Assembly: GCA_964556545.1 (NCBI GenBank)
Contig: CAZKWE010000059.1
Coordinates: 24,481-88,480, forward strand
DNA from: an uncultured Campylobacteraceae bacterium
GTDB taxonomy: Bacteria; Campylobacterota; Campylobacteria; Campylobacterales; JALSKU01
Direction of reading: 5' to 3'
Length of the DNA: 64,000 bases
Positions 32,942-38,850 of this stretch are shown piece after piece (position 1 is the stretch's first letter; every line of letters begins with the position of its first letter). The position numbers were made by a program, and so were the translations under genes. A model generated the notes under the pieces. It was not told the origin of the DNA. It ran no database searches and worked only from the letters and a program-made list of their open reading frames with translations.

Positions 32942-33604
32942 ATGAAAAAAATTATATATATATTTATGCTGATTGTCGCAGTTGCTTTGTATGCCGGGCA
33001 AAAGCAAGAAAGTATAATTATAGCGGCAGCAGATATTATGAATGACATTATGAGTATTCCTGAAAAATCAATACCGCCAAAATTACTTAAAAATGCTAAA
33101 GCCATAGCAATTATCCCGCATGTTATAAAAGCAGGTTTGGTTGTGGGTGGAAGATTTGGAAGAGGAGTGTTGCTTATAAAACGAAATGGAAAATACAGTG
33201 CCCCATGCTTTATTAACTTAACGGGAGGAAGTCTTGGATGGCAAATAGGAGTTCAATCAAGTGATATTATACTGGTTTTTAAAAATGCCAATGCGGTAGA
33301 TGGGATAGTAAGCGGAAAGTTTACTTTGGGAGCCGATGCGGCAGTTGCTGCCGGACCTGTAGGAAGAAATGCACTGGCTGCTACTGATGCATCACTACAG
33401 GCTGAGATATATTCTTATTCAAGATCAAAAGGACTTTTTGCGGGTATCGCACTTGATGGCACCGCTTTAAGTGTAAATGATGATTATAATGAAATATATT
33501 ACAAAAAAGAGGTGTATCCTACCGATATATTTAAAGGATATCACATAAGAGTACCAAAAAGCGGGCAAGTTTTGATAGAGACCGTATCAAGATATACAAG
33601 ATAA
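32942..33604 (+). CDS. SYLF (DUF500/Ysc84-like) lipid-binding domain protein, secreted
   Basis: 220 aa with a signal peptide. ...GGSLGWQIGVQSSDIILVF...YSYSRSKGLFAGIALDG... matches the SYLF repeat pattern. Confidence 0.6.
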   Translation: MKKIIYIFMLIVAVALYAGQKQESIIIAAADIMNDIMSIPEKSIPPKLLKNAKAIAIIPHVIKAGLVVGGRFGRGVLLIKRNGKYSAPCFINLTGGSLGWQIGVQSSDIILVFKNANAVDGIVSGKFTLGADAAVAAGPVGRNALAATDASLQAEIYSYSRSKGLFAGIALDGTALSVNDDYNEIYYKKEVYPTDIFKGYHIRVPKSGQVLIETVSRYTR

Positions 33605-33614
33605 AAGCCAAATC

Positions 33615-34175
33615 ATGAATGATATCTTTACTTCACTTTCTACTTATGGGTATGTTATACTCTTTTTGTATTCTTTTGGGGGAGGATTTTTTGCTTTGGT
33701 TGCTGCCGGGATACTCTCATATGCCGGCAAAATGGATATAACAATATCCATAATAGTAGCTTTTACAGCAAACTTTATAGGAGACTTAACTCTTTTTTAT
33801 ATAGCAAGATATAACAAATCCATAGTTATGCCTTATATTAAAAAGCACAGAAGAAAACTTGCACTTAGTTCAATTATGATGAAAAAATATGGTGATAAGA
33901 TTATATTTTTTCAAAAGTTTATATACGGAGTAAAAACTCTTGTTCCCATTGCCATAGGATTGACAAGATATAATTTTAAAAAATTTACGATTTACAATCT
34001 TATATCAGCTTTTATATGGGCATTGCTATTTGGTCTTGGCAGTTTTTACAGCGGAAAATACCTCTTGGAAGCAGTAATTTATTTAAAAAATCATATATGG
34101 ATTACTCCTGTATTGCTTATGGTGCTTTTATATCTTATGTGGCTGTATATGGAAAAAGCAACCAAAAAGAGGTAG
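33615..34175 (+). CDS. DedA family membrane protein
   Basis: 186 aa. SNARE-associated/DedA-type pattern (...KYGDKIIFFQKFIYGVKTLVPIAIGLTRY...). Confidence 0.75.
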   Translation: MNDIFTSLSTYGYVILFLYSFGGGFFALVAAGILSYAGKMDITISIIVAFTANFIGDLTLFYIARYNKSIVMPYIKKHRRKLALSSIMMKKYGDKIIFFQKFIYGVKTLVPIAIGLTRYNFKKFTIYNLISAFIWALLFGLGSFYSGKYLLEAVIYLKNHIWITPVLLMVLLYLMWLYMEKATKKR

Positions 34176-34178
34176 ATT

Positions 34179-35444
34179 TCAGACCATCTCTATGGCATGT
34201 TTGACGATATCTACGCCATATCTTCTTCTTAATTTATCTATATTTTCATATAGCTTTTTTTCCGTACGATCACTTCGTATATGCAAAAGAGAGTAAGTGC
34301 TGTTTTTTATATTGTTGAAATTTGTCAATGAAAGGGAGAGCCTTATAATCTTGCTACTTTTATAGATATCTATCTCTTCAAAAAGTTTTATAAACTCTCT
34401 TTTTAAAAAAGATTCCGTAAAAATTCTATTGTAAGTTTTATGCTTTTTGGATTTCTCTTTAAACTCATATTTAATGCTTAAAAATATCGTCGAAGCTCTA
34501 TATCCGCTTCTGTTTAATATGAAAGATATGTGCCTTATGAGTATATGGAGTCTTCTTTTTATCTCATTTCTATCTCCTACGGGATCGAATGTTCTTGATA
34601 TGCCTATGGATTTTCTCTCTTTTTTAGGGATAACTTTATCTCTGTCCGAACCGCTTATGCGATCATACAGCTCTTTTGATTCTCTTCCTTGCGAATAGAA
34701 AAAAGTTTTTGAATTGTAAATATCTCCAAGAGTGCCCTTTTTGTAGCTCTGCAATCTTTTTGCCCAAGATTTGCCTATACCCGGAAACTTCTCTATCGGT
34801 ATATCTTTTATAAAATCGTATATTTTATCCTGATCGACCATCTTGATGCCCTCCGGTTTGGCAAAAGATGTGGCGAGTTTGGCTATCCATTTCGTCTGTG
34901 CGATACCTATGGATATGGGAAGATTTAGCCTATCTTTTACGATTTTTTTTATTTGGTATGCAAAAAAAATTACCTTATCATCCTCTATAAAACCGGAAAG
35001 ATCTGCAAAAAATTCATCTATACTATACTGTTCTACGATAGGCATATATCTCTTTAGAAGATGGTTCAATCTAAAAGATAGAGTATGATACAGTATATGA
35101 TTGGGAGGTAAAACTATCAAATTGGGACATAAAGATACGGCTTCTTTTATGCTCATACCTGTTTTTATACCGTAAGCCCTTGCTTCGTAGCTTGCGGTTA
35201 TGACGATACCTCTTATTCTATCTCCGTCAAGAAAATAGGATCTTCCTTTAAATCCGTCTTTTGAAAAAAATAGCGAGGGTACGAAAGCACCTCTGTTTGC
35301 CGTCATAGCCTTTTTGTAACCCTTTTGTTCAAATATAAACCGATCGCTTCTTCCTCCGACAATAACTTTTTTGTTTAAAAGTGTTCTATCTTTCGTTCTC
35401 TCTGCCGAAACGAAAAAAGAGTCAAGATCAAGATGCAATATCAT
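34179..35444 (-). CDS. Y-family translesion DNA polymerase (DinB/UmuC-like)
   Basis: 421 aa. N-terminal catalytic motif MILHLDLDSFFVSAE, and SIDEFFADL later. AGAAGG RBS. Confidence 0.85.
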   Translation of the reverse strand: MILHLDLDSFFVSAERTKDRTLLNKKVIVGGRSDRFIFEQKGYKKAMTANRGAFVPSLFFSKDGFKGRSYFLDGDRIRGIVITASYEARAYGIKTGMSIKEAVSLCPNLIVLPPNHILYHTLSFRLNHLLKRYMPIVEQYSIDEFFADLSGFIEDDKVIFFAYQIKKIVKDRLNLPISIGIAQTKWIAKLATSFAKPEGIKMVDQDKIYDFIKDIPIEKFPGIGKSWAKRLQSYKKGTLGDIYNSKTFFYSQGRESKELYDRISGSDRDKVIPKKERKSIGISRTFDPVGDRNEIKRRLHILIRHISFILNRSGYRASTIFLSIKYEFKEKSKKHKTYNRIFTESFLKREFIKLFEEIDIYKSSKIIRLSLSLTNFNNIKNSTYSLLHIRSDRTEKKLYENIDKLRRRYGVDIVKHAIEMV

Positions 35445-35582
35445 CTGCCTTCTCTTAAAAAATTGCCTCTCCTATTTTAGAAAAACGGTCTATCAAATTT
35501 TCAAGAAAGCGATCTGCTATTTTTATAACCAACATATTATCTCCTTTTTATTGCAAATTGTATTATTTTTCTAAACAATAGC

Positions 35583-35613
35583 ATAAATATATTTCATTAT
35601 GAAATATATTTAT
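35583..35613. promoter_or_regulatory. Perfect 15-bp inverted repeat (candidate operator) in the divergent polymerase/repressor promoter region
   Basis: ATAAATATATTTCAT-T-ATGAAATATATTTAT. The arms are exact reverse complements. It ends 8 nt upstream of an extended -10 element (TGcTATAAT, 35622-35630), about 30 nt before the repressor ATG. Confidence 0.5.
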
Positions 35614-35659
35614 AAAAAATATGCTATAATATTTTTTATATTAAAATATTGGAGATAGT

Positions 35660-36313
35660 ATGAAAGATATAAATGACATATTTGAAATAATGAAAGATAT
35701 ATTGTCTTCTGAAATAGGTGAAAAAAAAGTATATGACAAGGACTTGGCAAAAGTTTTGGGAATCAATCATTTAACTTTAGCTACAATGAAAAAAAGAGGT
35801 AAACTTCCTTATGATAAAATACTTGATTTTTGTGCCAAGAGAAAGATATCCATAAACTGGCTTTTGTATGACCAGGTAATTGAAAGCATAAGAGATGAAA
35901 CTGAAAAGTTTGCCCGCATAAGGTATTTTGGTGATATTTATGCAAGTGCCGGGGGAGGAGCTTTTAATTGGGACGAAGAGAGTGAGTATATAAATATTGA
36001 CAAAAAGATGCTTGAGCATTTAGGAGTGATAAACACAAAAGAGATAGATGCCATTAATGTTATGGGCGAGTCAATGGAGCCGACTTTAAAAGAAGGAAGT
36101 GTGGTATTTGTTGACAAAAGTGATACAAATATAAAAAAAGGAGGTATTTTTATACTCTCCACCAATGATGGTCTTTTTATAAAGAGAGTTTTATATAGAG
36201 TTGACGGAAGTTGTGATATTATTTCTGACAACCCTGCATATCCTCCTCAAAGGATACTGCAGGGAAGTTTTCAAATCATAGGAAAAGTTGTGGGACTTAT
36301 AAGCAACTTTTAG
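35660..36313 (+). CDS. HTH + S24 peptidase repressor (LexA / phage CI-like)
   Basis: 217 aa. N-terminal CI-type HTH (LAKVLGINHLTLATMKKRGKLP), candidate Ala-Gly cleavage site (YASAGGG), catalytic Ser (GESMEPT) and Lys (LFIKRV). GGAGA RBS. Confidence 0.8.
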   Translation: MKDINDIFEIMKDILSSEIGEKKVYDKDLAKVLGINHLTLATMKKRGKLPYDKILDFCAKRKISINWLLYDQVIESIRDETEKFARIRYFGDIYASAGGGAFNWDEESEYINIDKKMLEHLGVINTKEIDAINVMGESMEPTLKEGSVVFVDKSDTNIKKGGIFILSTNDGLFIKRVLYRVDGSCDIISDNPAYPPQRILQGSFQIIGKVVGLISNF

Positions 36314-36430
36314 ATTTATAAAAATATGCTACCAATACGATAAAAATAAAACAAGTTTTATAAATTTTAAGGTTTTTTTTGATAAAATAAATCACTATAT
36401 GCTATAAAAACAATAAGATAAGGTTTAATT

Positions 36431-37438
36431 ATGTTTCTTAAAAGAGTAATTTTTTATATTTTTTTTATATTTTTTGCACTTTTTTTTATAAACGGATGTG
36501 CAAAAACACAAGAGCAAAGAGAGTTAAAAACAGTTGAAAATAATGTAACCATAAGAATCGAAGGAGCAGTATATCCTATAAAAAAACAAGATGTTATATC
36601 ATCTGTTTCCGGTTATATAAAAGATATATATATCAAAAATGGAGATAGAGTTAAAAAAGGAGATAGGATTTACTCTCTTGATAAAGAGTTAATAAGGCTT
36701 GATATAGAAAACAAAAAGATGGAAATTTCCTCTTTAGAGCAAATAAGAGATCATATATATTCAAGAAAAAAAGGTGGAGACGGAAATGTACCTGCAATAA
36801 ATCTTTCAGCAATGCAACTTAAAAAAATCTCTTATTTAAGATCAAAAGGATATGCCGGTGATTTTGAAGAGGATAAATATAAGAAAAATTATATAAATGC
36901 ACTATATAACAACAATAAAAATAACAATACGGACAATTATGAAAAATTAAAAAATTTAAATAAGCAGATTCAAACTGCAAAAATAGATCTTAAAAAGTTA
37001 GAATTCAAATTAAAACATGCTGATGCTTATTCGGAAATTAACGGTTTTGTTACAGGTTTAGATATAAATAAAAGAGAGATGATCGGTGCAAATCAAAAAA
37101 TATGCTCTATTGTTGATATTGATAAAGTTTTGGTTAAAGCGGGTTTTTCAACAGGATTATTGCCATTTATATATTCCGGGAAAAAGATAAATATTTCTTT
37201 CGTTACGACTCCTCCTTATAGCACCGTCTCTAAAATAACTCAGGTAAATCCTATTGTAAATCCTAAATTTGAAAGAATGACTATAGAGGCGATTGTGCCT
37301 AACCATAACTATATACTCCAATCAGGTACAAGGGCTTTGGTAACGATACCATTGTCAAAAAAAGGTCAAAAAGAGGTCAAAAAATACTTTTTAAATAACA
37401 AAAGAGATATAACATTGGAAATTAAATCCAAAATCTAA
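36431..37438 (+). CDS. HlyD/membrane-fusion-protein-like lipoprotein
   Basis: 335 aa. Lipobox-like FINGC, biotinyl-lipoyl-like hairpin (GYIKDIYIKNGDRVKKGDRIYSLD), a coiled-coil stretch, and a second lipoyl half (INGFVTGLDI). Confidence 0.5.
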   Translation: MFLKRVIFYIFFIFFALFFINGCAKTQEQRELKTVENNVTIRIEGAVYPIKKQDVISSVSGYIKDIYIKNGDRVKKGDRIYSLDKELIRLDIENKKMEISSLEQIRDHIYSRKKGGDGNVPAINLSAMQLKKISYLRSKGYAGDFEEDKYKKNYINALYNNNKNNNTDNYEKLKNLNKQIQTAKIDLKKLEFKLKHADAYSEINGFVTGLDINKREMIGANQKICSIVDIDKVLVKAGFSTGLLPFIYSGKKINISFVTTPPYSTVSKITQVNPIVNPKFERMTIEAIVPNHNYILQSGTRALVTIPLSKKGQKEVKKYFLNNKRDITLEIKSKI

Positions 37439-38850
37439 TCTTTTTCATATAAAAATACTCTTCCTGTCGGTAGTTTTTTTTGAGTAAAAGTATCTTTTTC
37501 GTATGATATTTTAATGGTAACGGAGTGTTTGCCACTTTTTATCCAATTGTCATCGTATGGATTGTAGATAAATTTATTGTTCGGTATAAAATCAGATGTA
37601 ATTTTGATATATTTATTTTTATTGTAAGCTTCACTTGCAACAACAAAACCATTTGTATAAAATCTTATATATATATCATACGGGTTTATTTTTATATATT
37701 TTTTTCCTAATACACTACCTAAATCATAAAAATATACACTATCTTTTTCCAACTCTTTATTTTTAGAAATTTGTGCATAAACTATATTGTTTGTAAGTTT
37801 TGCCATAGCATATCCAAAATATATTGCATTTTTTGGTTTTTTAAGTCTATAGATAGGCATAGTGCTATAAACTCTTTCATACTTAGGTGCAATATAATTT
37901 AAATATATAAAATTCTTAAAGCCATATTTCTTATATTTGTTTTTATATGATGTAAGTATATCTATAAAATGCAAAGAATCTTTTATGGATTTGGAATTTT
38001 TGTATATCGGATAGTAATCGGTAGTATCGACAAGATGAATCCATCCCTTGCCTACAATTTGTATATCCATTTTTTTTGTACGGTTGGTGGTGATATAGCT
38101 TTCAGTCATATCATAGATTATATTTTTAAGCAGATACTTTTCTTGCCTAAAAGCTTGATTGGTTACAAAAAATATTTTTTCTTTTTTTAGTTTCTTATAA
38201 AATTTTGCAATTTGTATAAAATAGTTTTTTTTCTTATGTTTTTTTTCAAAATTATTTTTCATTATTTTAAAATTTTTATTATTTATAAAACTACCGGATG
38301 CCCAATCAAAAAAGAGTCCGTTAAATCCGCTTCTTTTTAAATTTTTCATTAAGTTTTCGACTCTTTTGTCTATAAGCAATTCGTTGCCATAATCATAGTA
38401 ATAATCTTTGCACCAGTTATAATGATTTTTTTTACAATGAACGAAAGGACCGTTCGGATTTAGTGTCAGATGAAATCTATCCGTGTATAACCACTTTACA
38501 AAATCTCTATTTTCTCCATTTGTGTAATAATATGTCGCTGGCATCCAGTCATATCCGATGTGATATTTGATATTTAATATTCCTCTTTTTTTTAAAAGTT
38601 CTTTTGTTATTTTAAAATCATCAACTCCTCCCATTTCTACCATTTGAAAATTTTTTGCCCATTTTATATCTTTTTTTTCACTTAAAGCCGGTATGAGTGT
38701 ATAGTCACCTTTTTTGATAGCTATTTTACCATTGTGTATAATAGTGTTGTATGATGATTCTTTTGTTATTTTAAAATTATATTTTTGTGCAAACAATAGA
38801 GTAGCCGTAAAGTATAAAATAAAAAAAATAGTAGTTTTAACTCTTTTCAT
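37435..38850 (-). CDS. Secreted protein, candidate GH114-like / PelA-hydrolase-like TIM-barrel glycosidase
   Basis: 471 aa with a signal peptide. The segment order ...KKRGILNIKYHIGY...VENLMKNLKRSGFNGLFFDW...IFFVTNQA... parallels the GH114/GHL pattern (..icYis.G.., ..kGfDGvflD.., ..v..KN). Resemblance by eye only. Confidence 0.4.
   Translation of the reverse strand: MKRVKTTIFFILYFTATLLFAQKYNFKITKESSYNTIIHNGKIAIKKGDYTLIPALSEKKDIKWAKNFQMVEMGGVDDFKITKELLKKRGILNIKYHIGYDWMPATYYYTNGENRDFVKWLYTDRFHLTLNPNGPFVHCKKNHYNWCKDYYYDYGNELLIDKRVENLMKNLKRSGFNGLFFDWASGSFINNKNFKIMKNNFEKKHKKKNYFIQIAKFYKKLKKEKIFFVTNQAFRQEKYLLKNIIYDMTESYITTNRTKKMDIQIVGKGWIHLVDTTDYYPIYKNSKSIKDSLHFIDILTSYKNKYKKYGFKNFIYLNYIAPKYERVYSTMPIYRLKKPKNAIYFGYAMAKLTNNIVYAQISKNKELEKDSVYFYDLGSVLGKKYIKINPYDIYIRFYTNGFVVASEAYNKNKYIKITSDFIPNNKFIYNPYDDNWIKSGKHSVTIKISYEKDTFTQKKLPTGRVFLYEKD

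What the first reader, a model, noticed from the sequence alone, without database searches (positions are those of the whole stretch)
34179..36313. SOS-like cassette: Y-family polymerase divergent from an autocleavable HTH-S24 repressor, with a perfect 15-bp palindrome operator candidate
**Seen:**
- A DinB/UmuC-type polymerase (minus strand) and a CI/LexA-like protein with HTH, Ala-Gly site, Ser (GESMEPT) and Lys (FIKRV) (plus strand) share a 215-bp AT-rich control region.
- That region contains ATAAATATATTTCAT-T-ATGAAATATATTTAT (35583-35613) directly upstream of an extended -10 (TGcTATAAT).

**Known:**
- The best-studied Campylobacterota (C. jejuni, H. pylori) lack LexA and a classical SOS response.
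- Known LexA boxes (CTGT-N8-ACAG, GAAC-N4-GTTC) do not match this palindrome.

**Inference:** this is a self-contained damage-inducible mutagenesis module, possibly of mobile or phage origin, with a novel operator sequence.
Basis: partly seen in the sequence, partly recalled or inferred. Interest (0 to 1): 0.6.

Follow-up and report, generated by a model that had tools for sequence, protein, structure and literature searches.

The report
LexA-like repressor controlling a mutagenic polymerase
A phage-type, self-cleaving repressor sits back-to-back with an error-prone DNA polymerase and shares a conserved operator with it; the same repressor, operator and polymerase recur across non-pathogenic Campylobacterota, a phylum usually said to lack an SOS regulator.

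Summary
A 421-aa Y-family polymerase (34179-35444, -) and a 217-aa HTH + S24 repressor (35660-36313, +) diverge from a 215-bp region holding a perfect 15-1-15 palindrome (35583-35613).

- **Palindrome not chance:** it is the longest in the window; 0 of 100 simulations reached 15 nt.
- **Conserved operator:** its 21-bp core (AATATkkCA-N3-TGmmATATT) lies upstream of the repressor gene in about 77 of 81 loci across the phylum.
- **Polymerase is a target:** the motif also lies upstream of this polymerase clade where the repressor is not adjacent. There it ends 25 nt before the -10, the same spacing as in the window. No outgroup DinB locus has it.
- **Repressor type:** a CI-type helical HTH (not the LexA winged helix), with invariant Ala97-Gly98, Ser138 and Lys175.

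The regulatory link and a non-LexA-box operator hold. Here, however, the repressor is a syntenic chromosomal gene that is usually unlinked to the polymerase, with no mobile-element genes nearby. Plasmid copies of the cassette do exist elsewhere.

This is a new member of the known class of non-canonical SOS-like repressors (HdiR, UmuDAb, Bacteroidetes LexA, FddR). Damage induction is untested.

The parts
34179..35444 (-). Y-family DNA polymerase, 421 aa, of a Campylobacterota-specific clade. Catalytic LDLD is residues 5-8 (within 35412-35432) and SIDEFF is residues 141-146 (35007-35024). A clade-specific insertion of about 48 aa spans residues 32-79 (35208-35351).
   Evidence: - Pfam IMS, IMS_C and IMS_HHH hits.
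- NCBIfam: nearest models are DinB, but all score below cut-off; the best is 214 bits against 399. UmuC scores 82 against 431.
- Best PDB match is DNA polymerase IV 7yll, E = 2.6e-39. That alignment skips query residues 36-66.
- D6, D8, D143 and E144 are invariant in 12 clade members, and the insertion is conserved.
35455..35535 (-). Small ORF of 26 aa (MLVIKIADRFLENLIDRFSKIGEAIF). It has a GGAGA ribosome-binding site and ends 10 nt before the polymerase ATG. It is probably co-transcribed with the polymerase. Its function is unknown.
   Evidence: - Homologous ORFs of 23-33 aa occupy the same place in L128, L083/84, L081/82, L097, L014 and L011.
- In L083/84 and L014 the stop overlaps the polymerase start as TAATG.
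- Codon-position differences summed over 6 pairs are 65/24/92 for positions 1/2/3, which is a coding pattern.
35557..35562 (-). Predicted -10 hexamer (TACAAT) of the small-ORF/polymerase promoter. The predicted transcription start is near 35550.
   Evidence: - The hexamer is conserved in an alignment of five intergenic regions.
- It lies exactly 25 nt from O1. This is the same spacing as between operator and -10 in ten unlinked polymerase loci, and in L083, L128, L081 and L097.
- This is an inference; no transcript data are available.
35547..35567 (.). O2, a weaker second operator-like site (TTTATTGCAAATTGTATTATT). It lies 41 bp centre-to-centre from O1 and overlaps the predicted polymerase -10.
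   Evidence: - It scores 13.3 bits and is one of only two sites at or above 10 bits in the 64-kb window. Shuffles give 0.92 such sites per window.
- The best left half-site upstream of O1 lies at exactly -41 or -42 bp in 38 of 73 repressor loci.
- Of 14 loci with a second full site of at least 5 bits, 8 have it at -41 or -42 and 2 at -82 or -83.
35588..35608 (.). O1, the main operator (TATATTTCATTATGAAATATA). It is the conserved core of the 15-1-15 palindrome at 35583-35613.
   Evidence: - It scores 20.7 bits against the family matrix.
- The core TATTTCA-N3-TGAAATA is exact in L001-L010.
- TATnnCA-N3-TGnnATA is present upstream of the repressor gene in about 77 of 81 loci, with CA and TG near-invariant.
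35609..35650 (+). A 42-bp segment absent from the four nearest relatives. It carries the extended -10 TGcTATAAT (35622-35630) of the repressor promoter. The predicted transcription start is near 35637, which puts the O1 centre at about -39.
   Evidence: - Intergenic alignment of the window with its nearest relatives.
- In those relatives TGgTATAAT lies immediately upstream of O1.
- The window's spacing, O1 then 16 nt then TATAAT, is the usual one in Sulfurovum and Sulfurimonas loci.
35660..36313 (+). Repressor, 217 aa, with a CI-type helical HTH domain (about residues 1-81) and an S24 autopeptidase domain. The predicted cleavage site is Ala97-Gly98 (35948-35953). The predicted nucleophile is Ser138 (36071-36073) and the general base Lys175 (36182-36184). 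The ribosome-binding site GGAG is at 35651-35654.
   Evidence: - Pfam PF07022 and PF00717 hits.
- TIGR00498 lexA scores 33 bits against a cut-off of 111.
- A97, G98, S138 and K175 are invariant in 56 sequences.
- hhalign places S138 on LexA S119 and K175 on LexA K156.
- The AlphaFold2 model (pLDDT 77) has six N-terminal helices, no wing, and a beta-rich C-terminal domain.
- Foldseek top hits are the lambda-186 hybrid repressor, LexA, 186 CI and lambda CI.

Best explanation
The 217-aa protein is a chromosomal LexA-like repressor of non-canonical type, with a CI-type HTH joined to an S24 autopeptidase domain. It belongs to a family found across non-pathogenic Campylobacterota.

**Proposed mechanism (all steps inferred)**
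- As a dimer it binds the palindrome core TATnnCA-N3-TGnnATA at O1 (35588-35608).
- It probably binds cooperatively to the weaker O2 (35547-35567), which lies four helical turns away.
- The two sites lie between and over two back-to-back promoters. Binding therefore holds down both its own gene and an operon made of a 26-aa ORF plus a clade-specific Y-family polymerase.
- After DNA damage, RecA filaments would stimulate self-cleavage at Ala97-Gly98 by the Ser138/Lys175 dyad. This would release both promoters and allow translesion synthesis.

**What is shown**
- The genes and their domains.
- Conservation of the catalytic and cleavage residues.
- Conservation, specificity and fixed spacing of the operator in front of both genes across the phylum.

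**What is inferred**
- DNA binding itself.
- The direction of regulation (repression).
- Cooperativity between O1 and O2.
- RecA dependence and damage induction.
For: **Motif upstream of the repressor gene**
- It was found in about 77 of 81 loci spanning Sulfurospirillum, Sulfurovum, Nitratifractor, Arcobacter, Sulfuricurvum and Sulfurimonas.
- Nautiliaceae keep a variant, TTAACA-N3-TGTTAA, with the same CA-N3-TG core.

**Specificity**
- Only two sites at or above 10 bits occur in the 64-kb window, and both are in this intergenic region.
- All 84 sites at or above 15 bits in 786 kb of related loci lie upstream of the repressor or the polymerase.

**The polymerase as a target**
- 16 in-clade polymerase loci without an adjacent repressor carry a site. 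Ten of these have it exactly 37 bp from the ATG.
- None of about 50 outgroup DinB loci carries a site.
- The 25-nt spacing between O1 and the polymerase -10 is the same in the window.

**Repression geometry**
- In the nearest relatives O1 lies directly after the repressor's own -10 and covers the transcription start.

**Autocleavage features**
- A97-G98, S138 and K175 are invariant.
- These residues align with the LexA catalytic residues.
- The fold matches LexA and CI.

**Precedents**
- HdiR-umuC, UmuDAb and the Bacteroidetes non-canonical LexA (PMC8565304).
- Divergent fddR-dinB modules in Francisella (PMC13148647).
Against: **No experimental data**
- There is no binding, cleavage or expression evidence for any member of this family.

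**Operator position is not classic for repression**
- Relative to the polymerase promoter, O1 is centred near -48. This holds in the window and in unlinked loci.
- Relative to the window's repressor promoter, O1 is centred near -39.
- These positions are not the classic steric-repression position and could also suit an activator.

**O2 is weak**
- In some close relatives (L128, L081) the O2 position scores below 8 bits.

**Regulon size is unknown**
- No recA or other SOS gene was available to test, so whether this is a full SOS network or a two-gene circuit is open.

**Cleavage is not guaranteed by fold**
- Phage 186 CI, a top structural match, is to my knowledge not cleaved via RecA. Fold alone therefore does not prove cleavage.

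**Promoters are predicted only**
- The promoter scan did not list either proposed promoter, because neither has a -35 hexamer.
Confidence: 0.65

Rival explanations
1. The cassette is cargo of a mobile element (plasmid, ICE or prophage remnant). On this view it is a self-contained repressor-polymerase unit that arrived by horizontal transfer and is not part of a host network.
For: - The same divergent arrangement occurs on Aliarcobacter cibarius pACIB, next to a transposase.
- It also occurs on Sulfurospirillum diekertiae pSDCE1, with a related operator.
- A decayed copy lies on Sulfurimonas aquatica pSULFM1.
- The polymerase is present or absent at the same chromosomal site in close relatives.
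- PMC13148647 describes such units as prone to lateral transfer.
Against: - The repressor sits in a gene order (ABC transporter, Ysc84, VTT, then repressor) that is kept in relatives down to 57% identity, with or without the polymerase.
- None of the six genes scanned here, or the flanking genes called in syntenic relatives, hit integrase, transposase or phage families.
- GC content is ordinary.
- The window's operator is the family motif, which is also used at unlinked polymerase genes.
- Plasmid repressors are only 41-50% identical, so they are paralogues.
Confidence: 0.15
2. The protein is a repressor that does not respond to DNA damage. Its S24-like domain would serve only for dimerisation, as in phage 186 CI, and the circuit would answer to some other signal.
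For: - Structural matches include the phage 186 repressor and its hybrid.
- No damage data exist for any family member.
- Literature searches found no study of this family.
Against: - Ala-Gly, Ser and Lys are invariant in 56 sequences that are otherwise only 52-85% identical to the window protein. This would not be expected if catalysis were dispensable.
- Pfam Peptidase_S24 matches at 1.2e-21.
- The one recurring target is a translesion polymerase, a core SOS gene (PMC8565304).
Confidence: 0.15
3. The protein is a dual regulator in the manner of lambda CI. Bound at O1 it would activate one of the two promoters (its own in this window, or the polymerase's) rather than simply repressing both.
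For: - O1 is centred near -39 of the window's repressor promoter.
- O1 is centred near -48 of the polymerase promoter. Activators commonly occupy such positions.
- The two operators are 41 bp apart, which would permit cooperative binding.
Against: - In the nearest relatives the same operator covers the repressor's transcription start, a plain repression layout.
- Activating a mutagenic polymerase through a protein that damage destroys makes little biological sense.
- All transcription-start positions are predictions.
Confidence: 0.15
4. The palindrome is a chance feature of AT-rich DNA, or a structural element such as a hairpin or terminator, with no operator role.
For: - The region is AT-rich and holds many weak inverted repeats.
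Against: - No simulation reached arms of 15 nt.
- The core is conserved at the same place in about 77 loci, with covarying half-sites.
- The core also occurs upstream of unlinked polymerase genes.
- No terminator-like site was found in the region.
Confidence: 0.01

Closest known systems
HdiR with its divergent umuC cassette (Lactococcus lactis, Streptococcus uberis, S. thermophilus), as summarised in PMC8565304
   Same: - A phage-CI-type HTH joined to an S24 repressor, in a lineage without a described canonical LexA.
- It regulates itself and a Y-family polymerase.
- The network is small.
   Different: - It is a different protein family and a different phylum.
- The operator is different.
- Here the polymerase is a DinB-like clade with a 48-aa insertion, not UmuC.
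- Here the repressor is mostly unlinked to the polymerase.
- HdiR needs further Clp processing, which is unknown for this protein.
Non-canonical LexA of Bacteroidetes (Sanchez-Osuna et al. 2021, PMC8565304)
   Same: - It is chromosomal and phylum-wide.
- The N-terminal domain is CI-like and the C-terminal domain is S24.
- It binds a fixed-spacer palindrome.
- It is autoregulated and controls translesion polymerases.
- Operator variants track the clades of the repressor.
   Different: [quoted passage not shown]
- A full SOS regulon (recA and others) is shown there and is untested here.
- EMSA and RT-qPCR evidence exists there and none exists here.
- Homology between the two families was not tested, because no reference sequence was available.
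FddR of Francisella, including divergent fddR-dinB modules (Perez-Varela et al. 2026, PMC13148647)
   Same: - A phage-type S24 repressor is divergently paired with dinB, with a palindromic operator between them.
- The modules are found on both a chromosome and a plasmid.
   Different: - FddR is reported to be confined to one genus, whereas this family spans a phylum.
- In Francisella the main FddR partner is a gene of unknown function.
- Here there is an extra 26-aa ORF, and unlinked targets predicted to be leaderless.
Canonical LexA with dinB or umuDC (Escherichia coli)
   Same: - S24 domain with an Ala-Gly site and a Ser/Lys dyad.
- Autoregulation through a palindromic box.
- Control of an error-prone polymerase.
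   Different: - The DNA-binding domain here is not the winged helix PF01726.
- TIGR00498 scores far below its cut-off.
- The operator is unrelated to CTGT-N8-ACAG.
- There is no UmuD partner.
'epsilon-prot PolIV-like' Y-family group of Timinskas and Venclovas 2019 (PMC6511836)
   Same: - It is a distinct cluster of Y-family polymerases from Campylobacterota, with Arcobacter nitrofigilis ADG92494.1 as representative.
- The window polymerase has 47-48% identical relatives in Arcobacter.
   Different: - That paper only labels the cluster in a figure legend.
- It does not describe regulation, the insertion or the small ORF.

Membership tests
Canonical LexA (TIGR00498; PF01726 + PF00717) | [quoted passage not shown] | tested here: not met
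   - Pfam gives PF07022 Phage_CI_repr instead, with no PF01726 hit at E up to 0.01.
- The AlphaFold2 model has six helices and no beta wing in residues 1-81.
Canonical LexA (TIGR00498; PF01726 + PF00717) | Score at or above the NCBIfam equivalog cut-off | tested here: not met
   33.3 bits against a cut-off of 110.95.
Canonical LexA (TIGR00498; PF01726 + PF00717) | S24 domain with Ser/Lys dyad and an Ala-Gly cleavage site | tested here: met
   - PF00717 hit at 1.2e-21.
- A97-G98, S138 and K175 are invariant in 56 sequences.
Canonical LexA (TIGR00498; PF01726 + PF00717) | RecA-stimulated self-cleavage and induction by DNA damage | not testable with these tools
   This needs biochemistry or expression data. 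No paper on this family was found.
Non-canonical SOS-like S24 repressors (HdiR, UmuDAb, Bacteroidetes LexA, FddR; a functional class) | S24 domain fused to a non-LexA (CI/XRE-type) DNA-binding domain | tested here: met
   - Pfam PF07022 and PF00717 hits.
- PHROG phrog_4 transcriptional repressor at 4e-37.
- Foldseek hits to the lambda-186 hybrid repressor, 186 CI, lambda CI and LexA.
Non-canonical SOS-like S24 repressors (HdiR, UmuDAb, Bacteroidetes LexA, FddR; a functional class) | Encoded by the host chromosome, outside a prophage | tested here: met
   - The neighbours are housekeeping genes in an order shared with relatives.
- Viral contigs hold only relatives at 27-37% identity.
- Phage records hold relatives at 39% identity or less.
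Non-canonical SOS-like S24 repressors (HdiR, UmuDAb, Bacteroidetes LexA, FddR; a functional class) | One palindromic motif upstream of both its own gene and a translesion polymerase gene | tested here: met
   - Motif upstream of the repressor gene.
- Motif upstream of the polymerase.
- Motif specificity.
- This is computational evidence only.
Non-canonical SOS-like S24 repressors (HdiR, UmuDAb, Bacteroidetes LexA, FddR; a functional class) | Control of a wider SOS set (recA, uvrA, cell-division inhibitor) | not tested
   - No recA gene is present in the window or in any fetched locus.
- Whole genomes could not be scanned with the tools available.
DinB / DNA polymerase IV | IMS catalytic core and little-finger domain with the catalytic Asp, Asp and Glu | tested here: met
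   - Pfam IMS, IMS_C and IMS_HHH hits.
- D6, D8, D143 and E144 are invariant.
DinB / DNA polymerase IV | Score at or above an NCBIfam DinB equivalog cut-off | tested here: not met
   - The best score is 214 bits against 399, and all nine DinB models fall below their cut-offs.
- A conserved insertion of about 48 aa is absent from solved DinB structures.
umuDC (Pol V) operon | UmuC-type polymerase co-transcribed with a UmuD that lacks a DNA-binding domain | tested here: not met
   - The UmuC model scores 82 bits against 431.
- The S24 protein carries an HTH domain and is transcribed divergently.
Prophage, ICE or plasmid cargo module | Integrase, transposase, phage or plasmid genes flanking the cassette | tested here: not met
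   - None of the six window ORFs scanned (32942-38850) hit a mobile-element family.
- The gene tables of syntenic loci (L083, L085/86, L097) also list none beside the cassette.
- The feature is met in other genomes, on the plasmids pACIB and pSDCE1.

The most novel reading that the evidence does not exclude
This repressor is the master regulator of an unrecognised SOS-like response shared by the free-living Campylobacterota (Sulfurospirillum, Arcobacter, Sulfurimonas, Sulfurovum, Nautiliaceae and others). It would be a further independent takeover of SOS control by a phage-type S24 repressor, with its own operator family, TATnnCA-N3-TGnnATA. Its conserved target would be a clade-specific translesion polymerase that is expressed from leaderless transcripts in many genomes. 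Where the two genes are linked, that polymerase would be paired with a conserved micro-protein of about 26 aa acting as a new accessory factor.
Probability: 0.35. Interest if true: 0.72.

Novelty: new member of a known kind. Interest (0 to 1): 0.55.

Why it matters
- **A gap in the phylum.** My literature searches found no study of a LexA-like regulator anywhere in the phylum.
- **What is now testable.** The data give a candidate regulator, a precise operator with two sites and fixed spacing, and a conserved target polymerase. Simple experiments in culturable relatives such as Sulfurospirillum, Aliarcobacter or Sulfurimonas could test all three.
- **Evolutionary interest.** If confirmed, this adds another independent case to those in Streptococcaceae, Bacteroidetes, Moraxellaceae and Francisella, where a non-LexA S24 protein controls induced mutagenesis. 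That bears on how SOS networks are lost and rebuilt.
- **Practical interest.** The family shows the cassette in three states: linked on the chromosome, unlinked, and carried on plasmids. Plasmid-borne inducible mutagenesis modules in Aliarcobacter, a food-borne genus, may be relevant to the evolution of resistance.

Tried and rejected
**Searches that led nowhere**
- **Source contig:** an exact look-up of the contig encoding the window repressor found nothing.
- **Repressor against PDB by sequence:** nothing significant, with a best E of 0.25. I therefore used Pfam, hhalign and a predicted structure instead.
the written half-site has only chance-level extra matches in the window. The 17-bp core at up to 2 mismatches is likewise at chance level.
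- **Further targets of the motif:** a scan of 786 kb of related loci found none. Every strong site belongs to the repressor or the polymerase.
- **recA:** no recA gene is present in the window or any fetched locus, so recA regulation could not be examined.
- **Other partner genes:** a survey of the repressor's upstream neighbours found no recurring divergent partner apart from the polymerase. Sixty of 79 neighbours are co-directional housekeeping genes.
- **Promoter scan:** the sigma-70 scan did not list either proposed promoter, because neither has a -35 hexamer. The promoters were therefore inferred from conservation.

**Readings considered and rejected**
- **umuDC-type operon:** rejected on orientation, the presence of an HTH domain, and the UmuC model score.
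- **Terminator or hairpin role for the palindrome:** rejected.
- **Recent phage origin:** rejected, because the nearest phage repressors are 39% identical or less.


Full report

Yes. The minus strand carries a 421-aa ORF at 34179-35444, and the plus strand a 217-aa ORF at 35660-36313.

- The first ORF hits Pfam IMS (1.7e-41), IMS_C and IMS_HHH. The second hits Peptidase_S24 (1.2e-21) and the Phage_CI_repr HTH domain (1.5e-07).
- The start codons are 215 bp apart.
- ATAAATATATTTCAT-T-ATGAAATATATTTAT lies at 35583-35613 with perfectly complementary 15-nt arms. TGcTATAAT follows at 35622-35630.
- It is the longest perfect palindrome in the window. None of 100 first-order Markov simulations exceeded 13-nt arms.

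**2. The repressor belongs to a large chromosomal family.**

A search with the repressor returned 2969 proteins at E of 1e-5 or better. The named ones come from Sulfurospirillum, Campylobacterales and 'Epsilonproteobacteria'.

- A genome scan gave at least 437 loci. The best 80 span Sulfurospirillum, Sulfurovum, Nitratifractor, Nautiliaceae, Arcobacter, Sulfuricurvum and Sulfurimonas at 44-80% identity.
- Ala97, Gly98, Ser138 and Lys175 are invariant in 56 members.
- The family is not canonical LexA. TIGR00498 scores 33 bits against a cut-off of 111, and the N-terminal domain is PF07022, not the LexA winged helix.
- An AlphaFold2 model (pLDDT 77) shows six helices and no wing, followed by a beta-rich domain.
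- Foldseek finds the lambda-186 hybrid repressor, 186 CI, lambda CI and LexA.

**3. The palindrome core is the family's operator.**

- The core TATTTCA-N3-TGAAATA is exact upstream of the repressor gene in the ten closest genome loci. TATnnCA-N3-TGnnATA occurs in most others.
- A 21-bp matrix, AATATkkCAwwwTGmmATATT, converged on 77 of 81 upstream regions, with CA and TG nearly invariant.
- Nautiliaceae have TTAACA-N3-TGTTAA, which keeps the CA-N3-TG core.
- In the 64-kb window only two sites score 10 bits or more, and both lie in this intergenic region. O1 at 35588-35608 scores 20.7 bits and O2 at 35547-35567 scores 13.3 bits. Shuffled sequence gives 0.92 such sites per window.
- In 786 kb of related loci, all 84 sites at 15 bits or more lie upstream of the repressor or the polymerase.
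- O2 lies 41 bp from O1. The best half-site upstream of O1 is at exactly -41 or -42 bp in 38 of 73 loci. Second full sites also cluster at -41/-42 and at -82/-83. A two-operator layout on one face of the helix is therefore a feature of the family.

**4. The polymerase is a conserved target, whether linked or not.**

- Starting from the repressor, a polymerase of this clade is adjacent in only 7 of the 80 genome loci.
- Starting from the polymerase, I examined about 31 in-clade loci from metagenomes and complete genomes. Eight have the divergent repressor.
- Sixteen others carry a motif site within 300 bp upstream. Ten of these have it exactly 37 bp from the ATG.
- None of about 50 outgroup DinB loci has a site.
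- In the unlinked loci the layout is operator, 25 nt, TAnAAT, 6 nt, ATG. This predicts leaderless polymerase mRNA.
- In the window, the minus-strand TACAAT (35562 to 35557) lies exactly 25 nt from O1. The equivalent hexamer does so in L083, L128, L081 and L097. This fixes the likely polymerase promoter and shows that O1 serves it.

**5.

- **A small ORF.** A 26-aa ORF at 35455-35535 (-), with a ribosome-binding site, ends 10 nt before the polymerase ATG.
  - Homologous ORFs of 23-33 aa sit in the same place in L128, L083/84, L081/82, L097 (Sulfurospirillum sp. 1307), L014 (Arcobacter) and L011. In L083/84 and L014 the stop and start overlap as TAATG.
  - Codon-position differences are 65/24/92, which indicates a coding sequence.
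- **A lineage-specific insertion.** Compared with its four nearest relatives, the window has an extra 42 bp (35609-35650) between O1 and the repressor's ribosome-binding site. This segment carries TGcTATAAT.
  - In the relatives TGgTATAAT lies immediately upstream of O1, so that O1 covers the transcription start. In the window that older -10 has decayed.
  - The window's layout, O1 then 16 nt then TATAAT, is the usual one in Sulfurovum and Sulfurimonas.
- **The outer palindrome bases.** The outer 5 bases of each palindrome arm are specific to this lineage.

**6. Is it mobile or of phage origin?**

Not at this locus.

- The gene order adh_short, PNP_UDP, ABC transporter, Ysc84, VTT/DedA, then the repressor recurs in relatives at 57-72% repressor identity.
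- L085/86 have the same order without the polymerase. The repressor is therefore the stable gene, and the polymerase is gained or lost beside it.
- GC content is unremarkable.
- The cassette does travel elsewhere. It occurs on Aliarcobacter cibarius pACIB beside a transposase.
- It also occurs on Sulfurospirillum diekertiae pSDCE1, with the operator TTTATTTCACAGTGTAATATT. A decayed copy lies on Sulfurimonas aquatica pSULFM1.
- The closest phage repressors are from Campylobacter phage CAM-P21 (39%) and Helicobacter prophages (31-38%). Viral contigs hold only relatives at 27-37%. This fits an old phage ancestry.

**7. Mechanism.**

The best reading is a dimeric repressor bound at O1 and, more weakly, at O2. 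The two sites lie between back-to-back promoters. Binding would hold down both its own gene and the operon of the small ORF and the polymerase, and self-cleavage after DNA damage would relieve this.

- Binding, the direction of regulation and damage dependence are all inferred.
- One point is unexplained. O1 is centred near -48 of the polymerase promoter and near -39 of the window's repressor promoter. These are not classic repression positions.
- In the window O2 overlaps the polymerase -10 and may do the blocking. Unlinked loci, however, show only the -48 site.

**8. Comparison with known systems.**

- The kind is established: HdiR with umuC, UmuDAb and the Bacteroidetes non-canonical LexA (PMC8565304), and FddR with divergent fddR-dinB modules (PMC13148647).
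- The polymerase probably belongs to the 'epsilon-prot PolIV-like' cluster, which is labelled but not studied in PMC6511836.
- Six literature searches found nothing on a LexA-like regulator in Campylobacterota.
- I therefore rate this a new member of a known kind, of moderate to good interest.

Noticed in passing
window 35455-35535 (-); also L128, L083/84, L081/82, L097, L014, L011: A conserved small ORF of 23-33 aa lies immediately upstream of the polymerase, with its own ribosome-binding site. In L083/84 and L014 its stop overlaps the polymerase start (TAATG). Substitutions follow a coding pattern. It occurs only where the polymerase is divergent from the repressor. Its function is unknown; it could be an accessory subunit or a leader peptide.
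   Followed up: partly
window 35609-35650: A 42-bp segment carrying TGcTATAAT is absent from the four nearest relatives. In those relatives the repressor's -10 lies on the other side of the operator, so the repressor promoter appears to have moved in this lineage.
   Followed up: partly
L099, L101, L106, L107, L108, L111, L113, L119, L127, L136 (upstream of the polymerase ATG at about 3001 or its equivalent): Where the polymerase is unlinked to the repressor, a TAnAAT hexamer ends exactly 6 nt before the ATG and no ribosome-binding site is visible. This predicts a leaderless polymerase mRNA. The operator is fixed 25 nt upstream of the hexamer.
   Followed up: partly
window 35208-35351 (polymerase residues 32-79): A conserved insertion of about 48 aa (RSDxFIF...GAFVPS...YF.D..RIRG) lies between the VGG motif and the SYEAR motif. 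It is shared by all 12 clade members aligned. The best solved DinB (7yll) has no counterpart for query residues 36-66.
   Followed up: no
window 34278-34295 (polymerase residues 384-389, YSLLHI): This is a possible beta-clamp-binding motif. The same alignment column reads QLSLFSF in P0152 and similar in other members. It lies about 30 residues before the C-terminus rather than at the end.
   Followed up: no
L085/L086 versus L083/L084 and L097: Close relatives share the gene order ABC transporter, Ysc84, VTT, then repressor. They differ in whether the polymerase sits between VTT and the repressor, so this is a presence/absence polymorphism at one site.
   Followed up: partly
L182 (Aliarcobacter cibarius pACIB, NZ_CP043858.1, 1598-3666); L181/L183 (Sulfurospirillum diekertiae pSDCE1, NZ_CP059996.1); L180 (Sulfurimonas aquatica pSULFM1, NZ_CP046073.1): Plasmids carry copies of the divergent polymerase-repressor cassette. 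The pACIB copy lies beside a transposase and has a different palindrome. The pSULFM1 copy has lost the intergenic region and both 5' ends, and its repressor is frameshifted.
   Followed up: partly
L019 3777-3982: The intergenic region between polymerase and repressor in this Nautiliaceae locus holds a short C-rich repeat run (CCACCCATCCACCCATCCACTCATCTTCTCATCTTCCCATCCACC). This is unlike the other loci.
   Followed up: no
window 37435-38850 (-): A 471-aa ORF near the cassette has no Pfam hit at E of 0.01 or better.
   Followed up: no
L044, L062, L067, L071, L074, L079 (about 300 bp upstream of the repressor): In six Arcobacter-type loci the repressor is divergent from a small predicted membrane protein of about 89 aa rather than from the polymerase. 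Whether that gene shares the operator was not examined.
   Followed up: no
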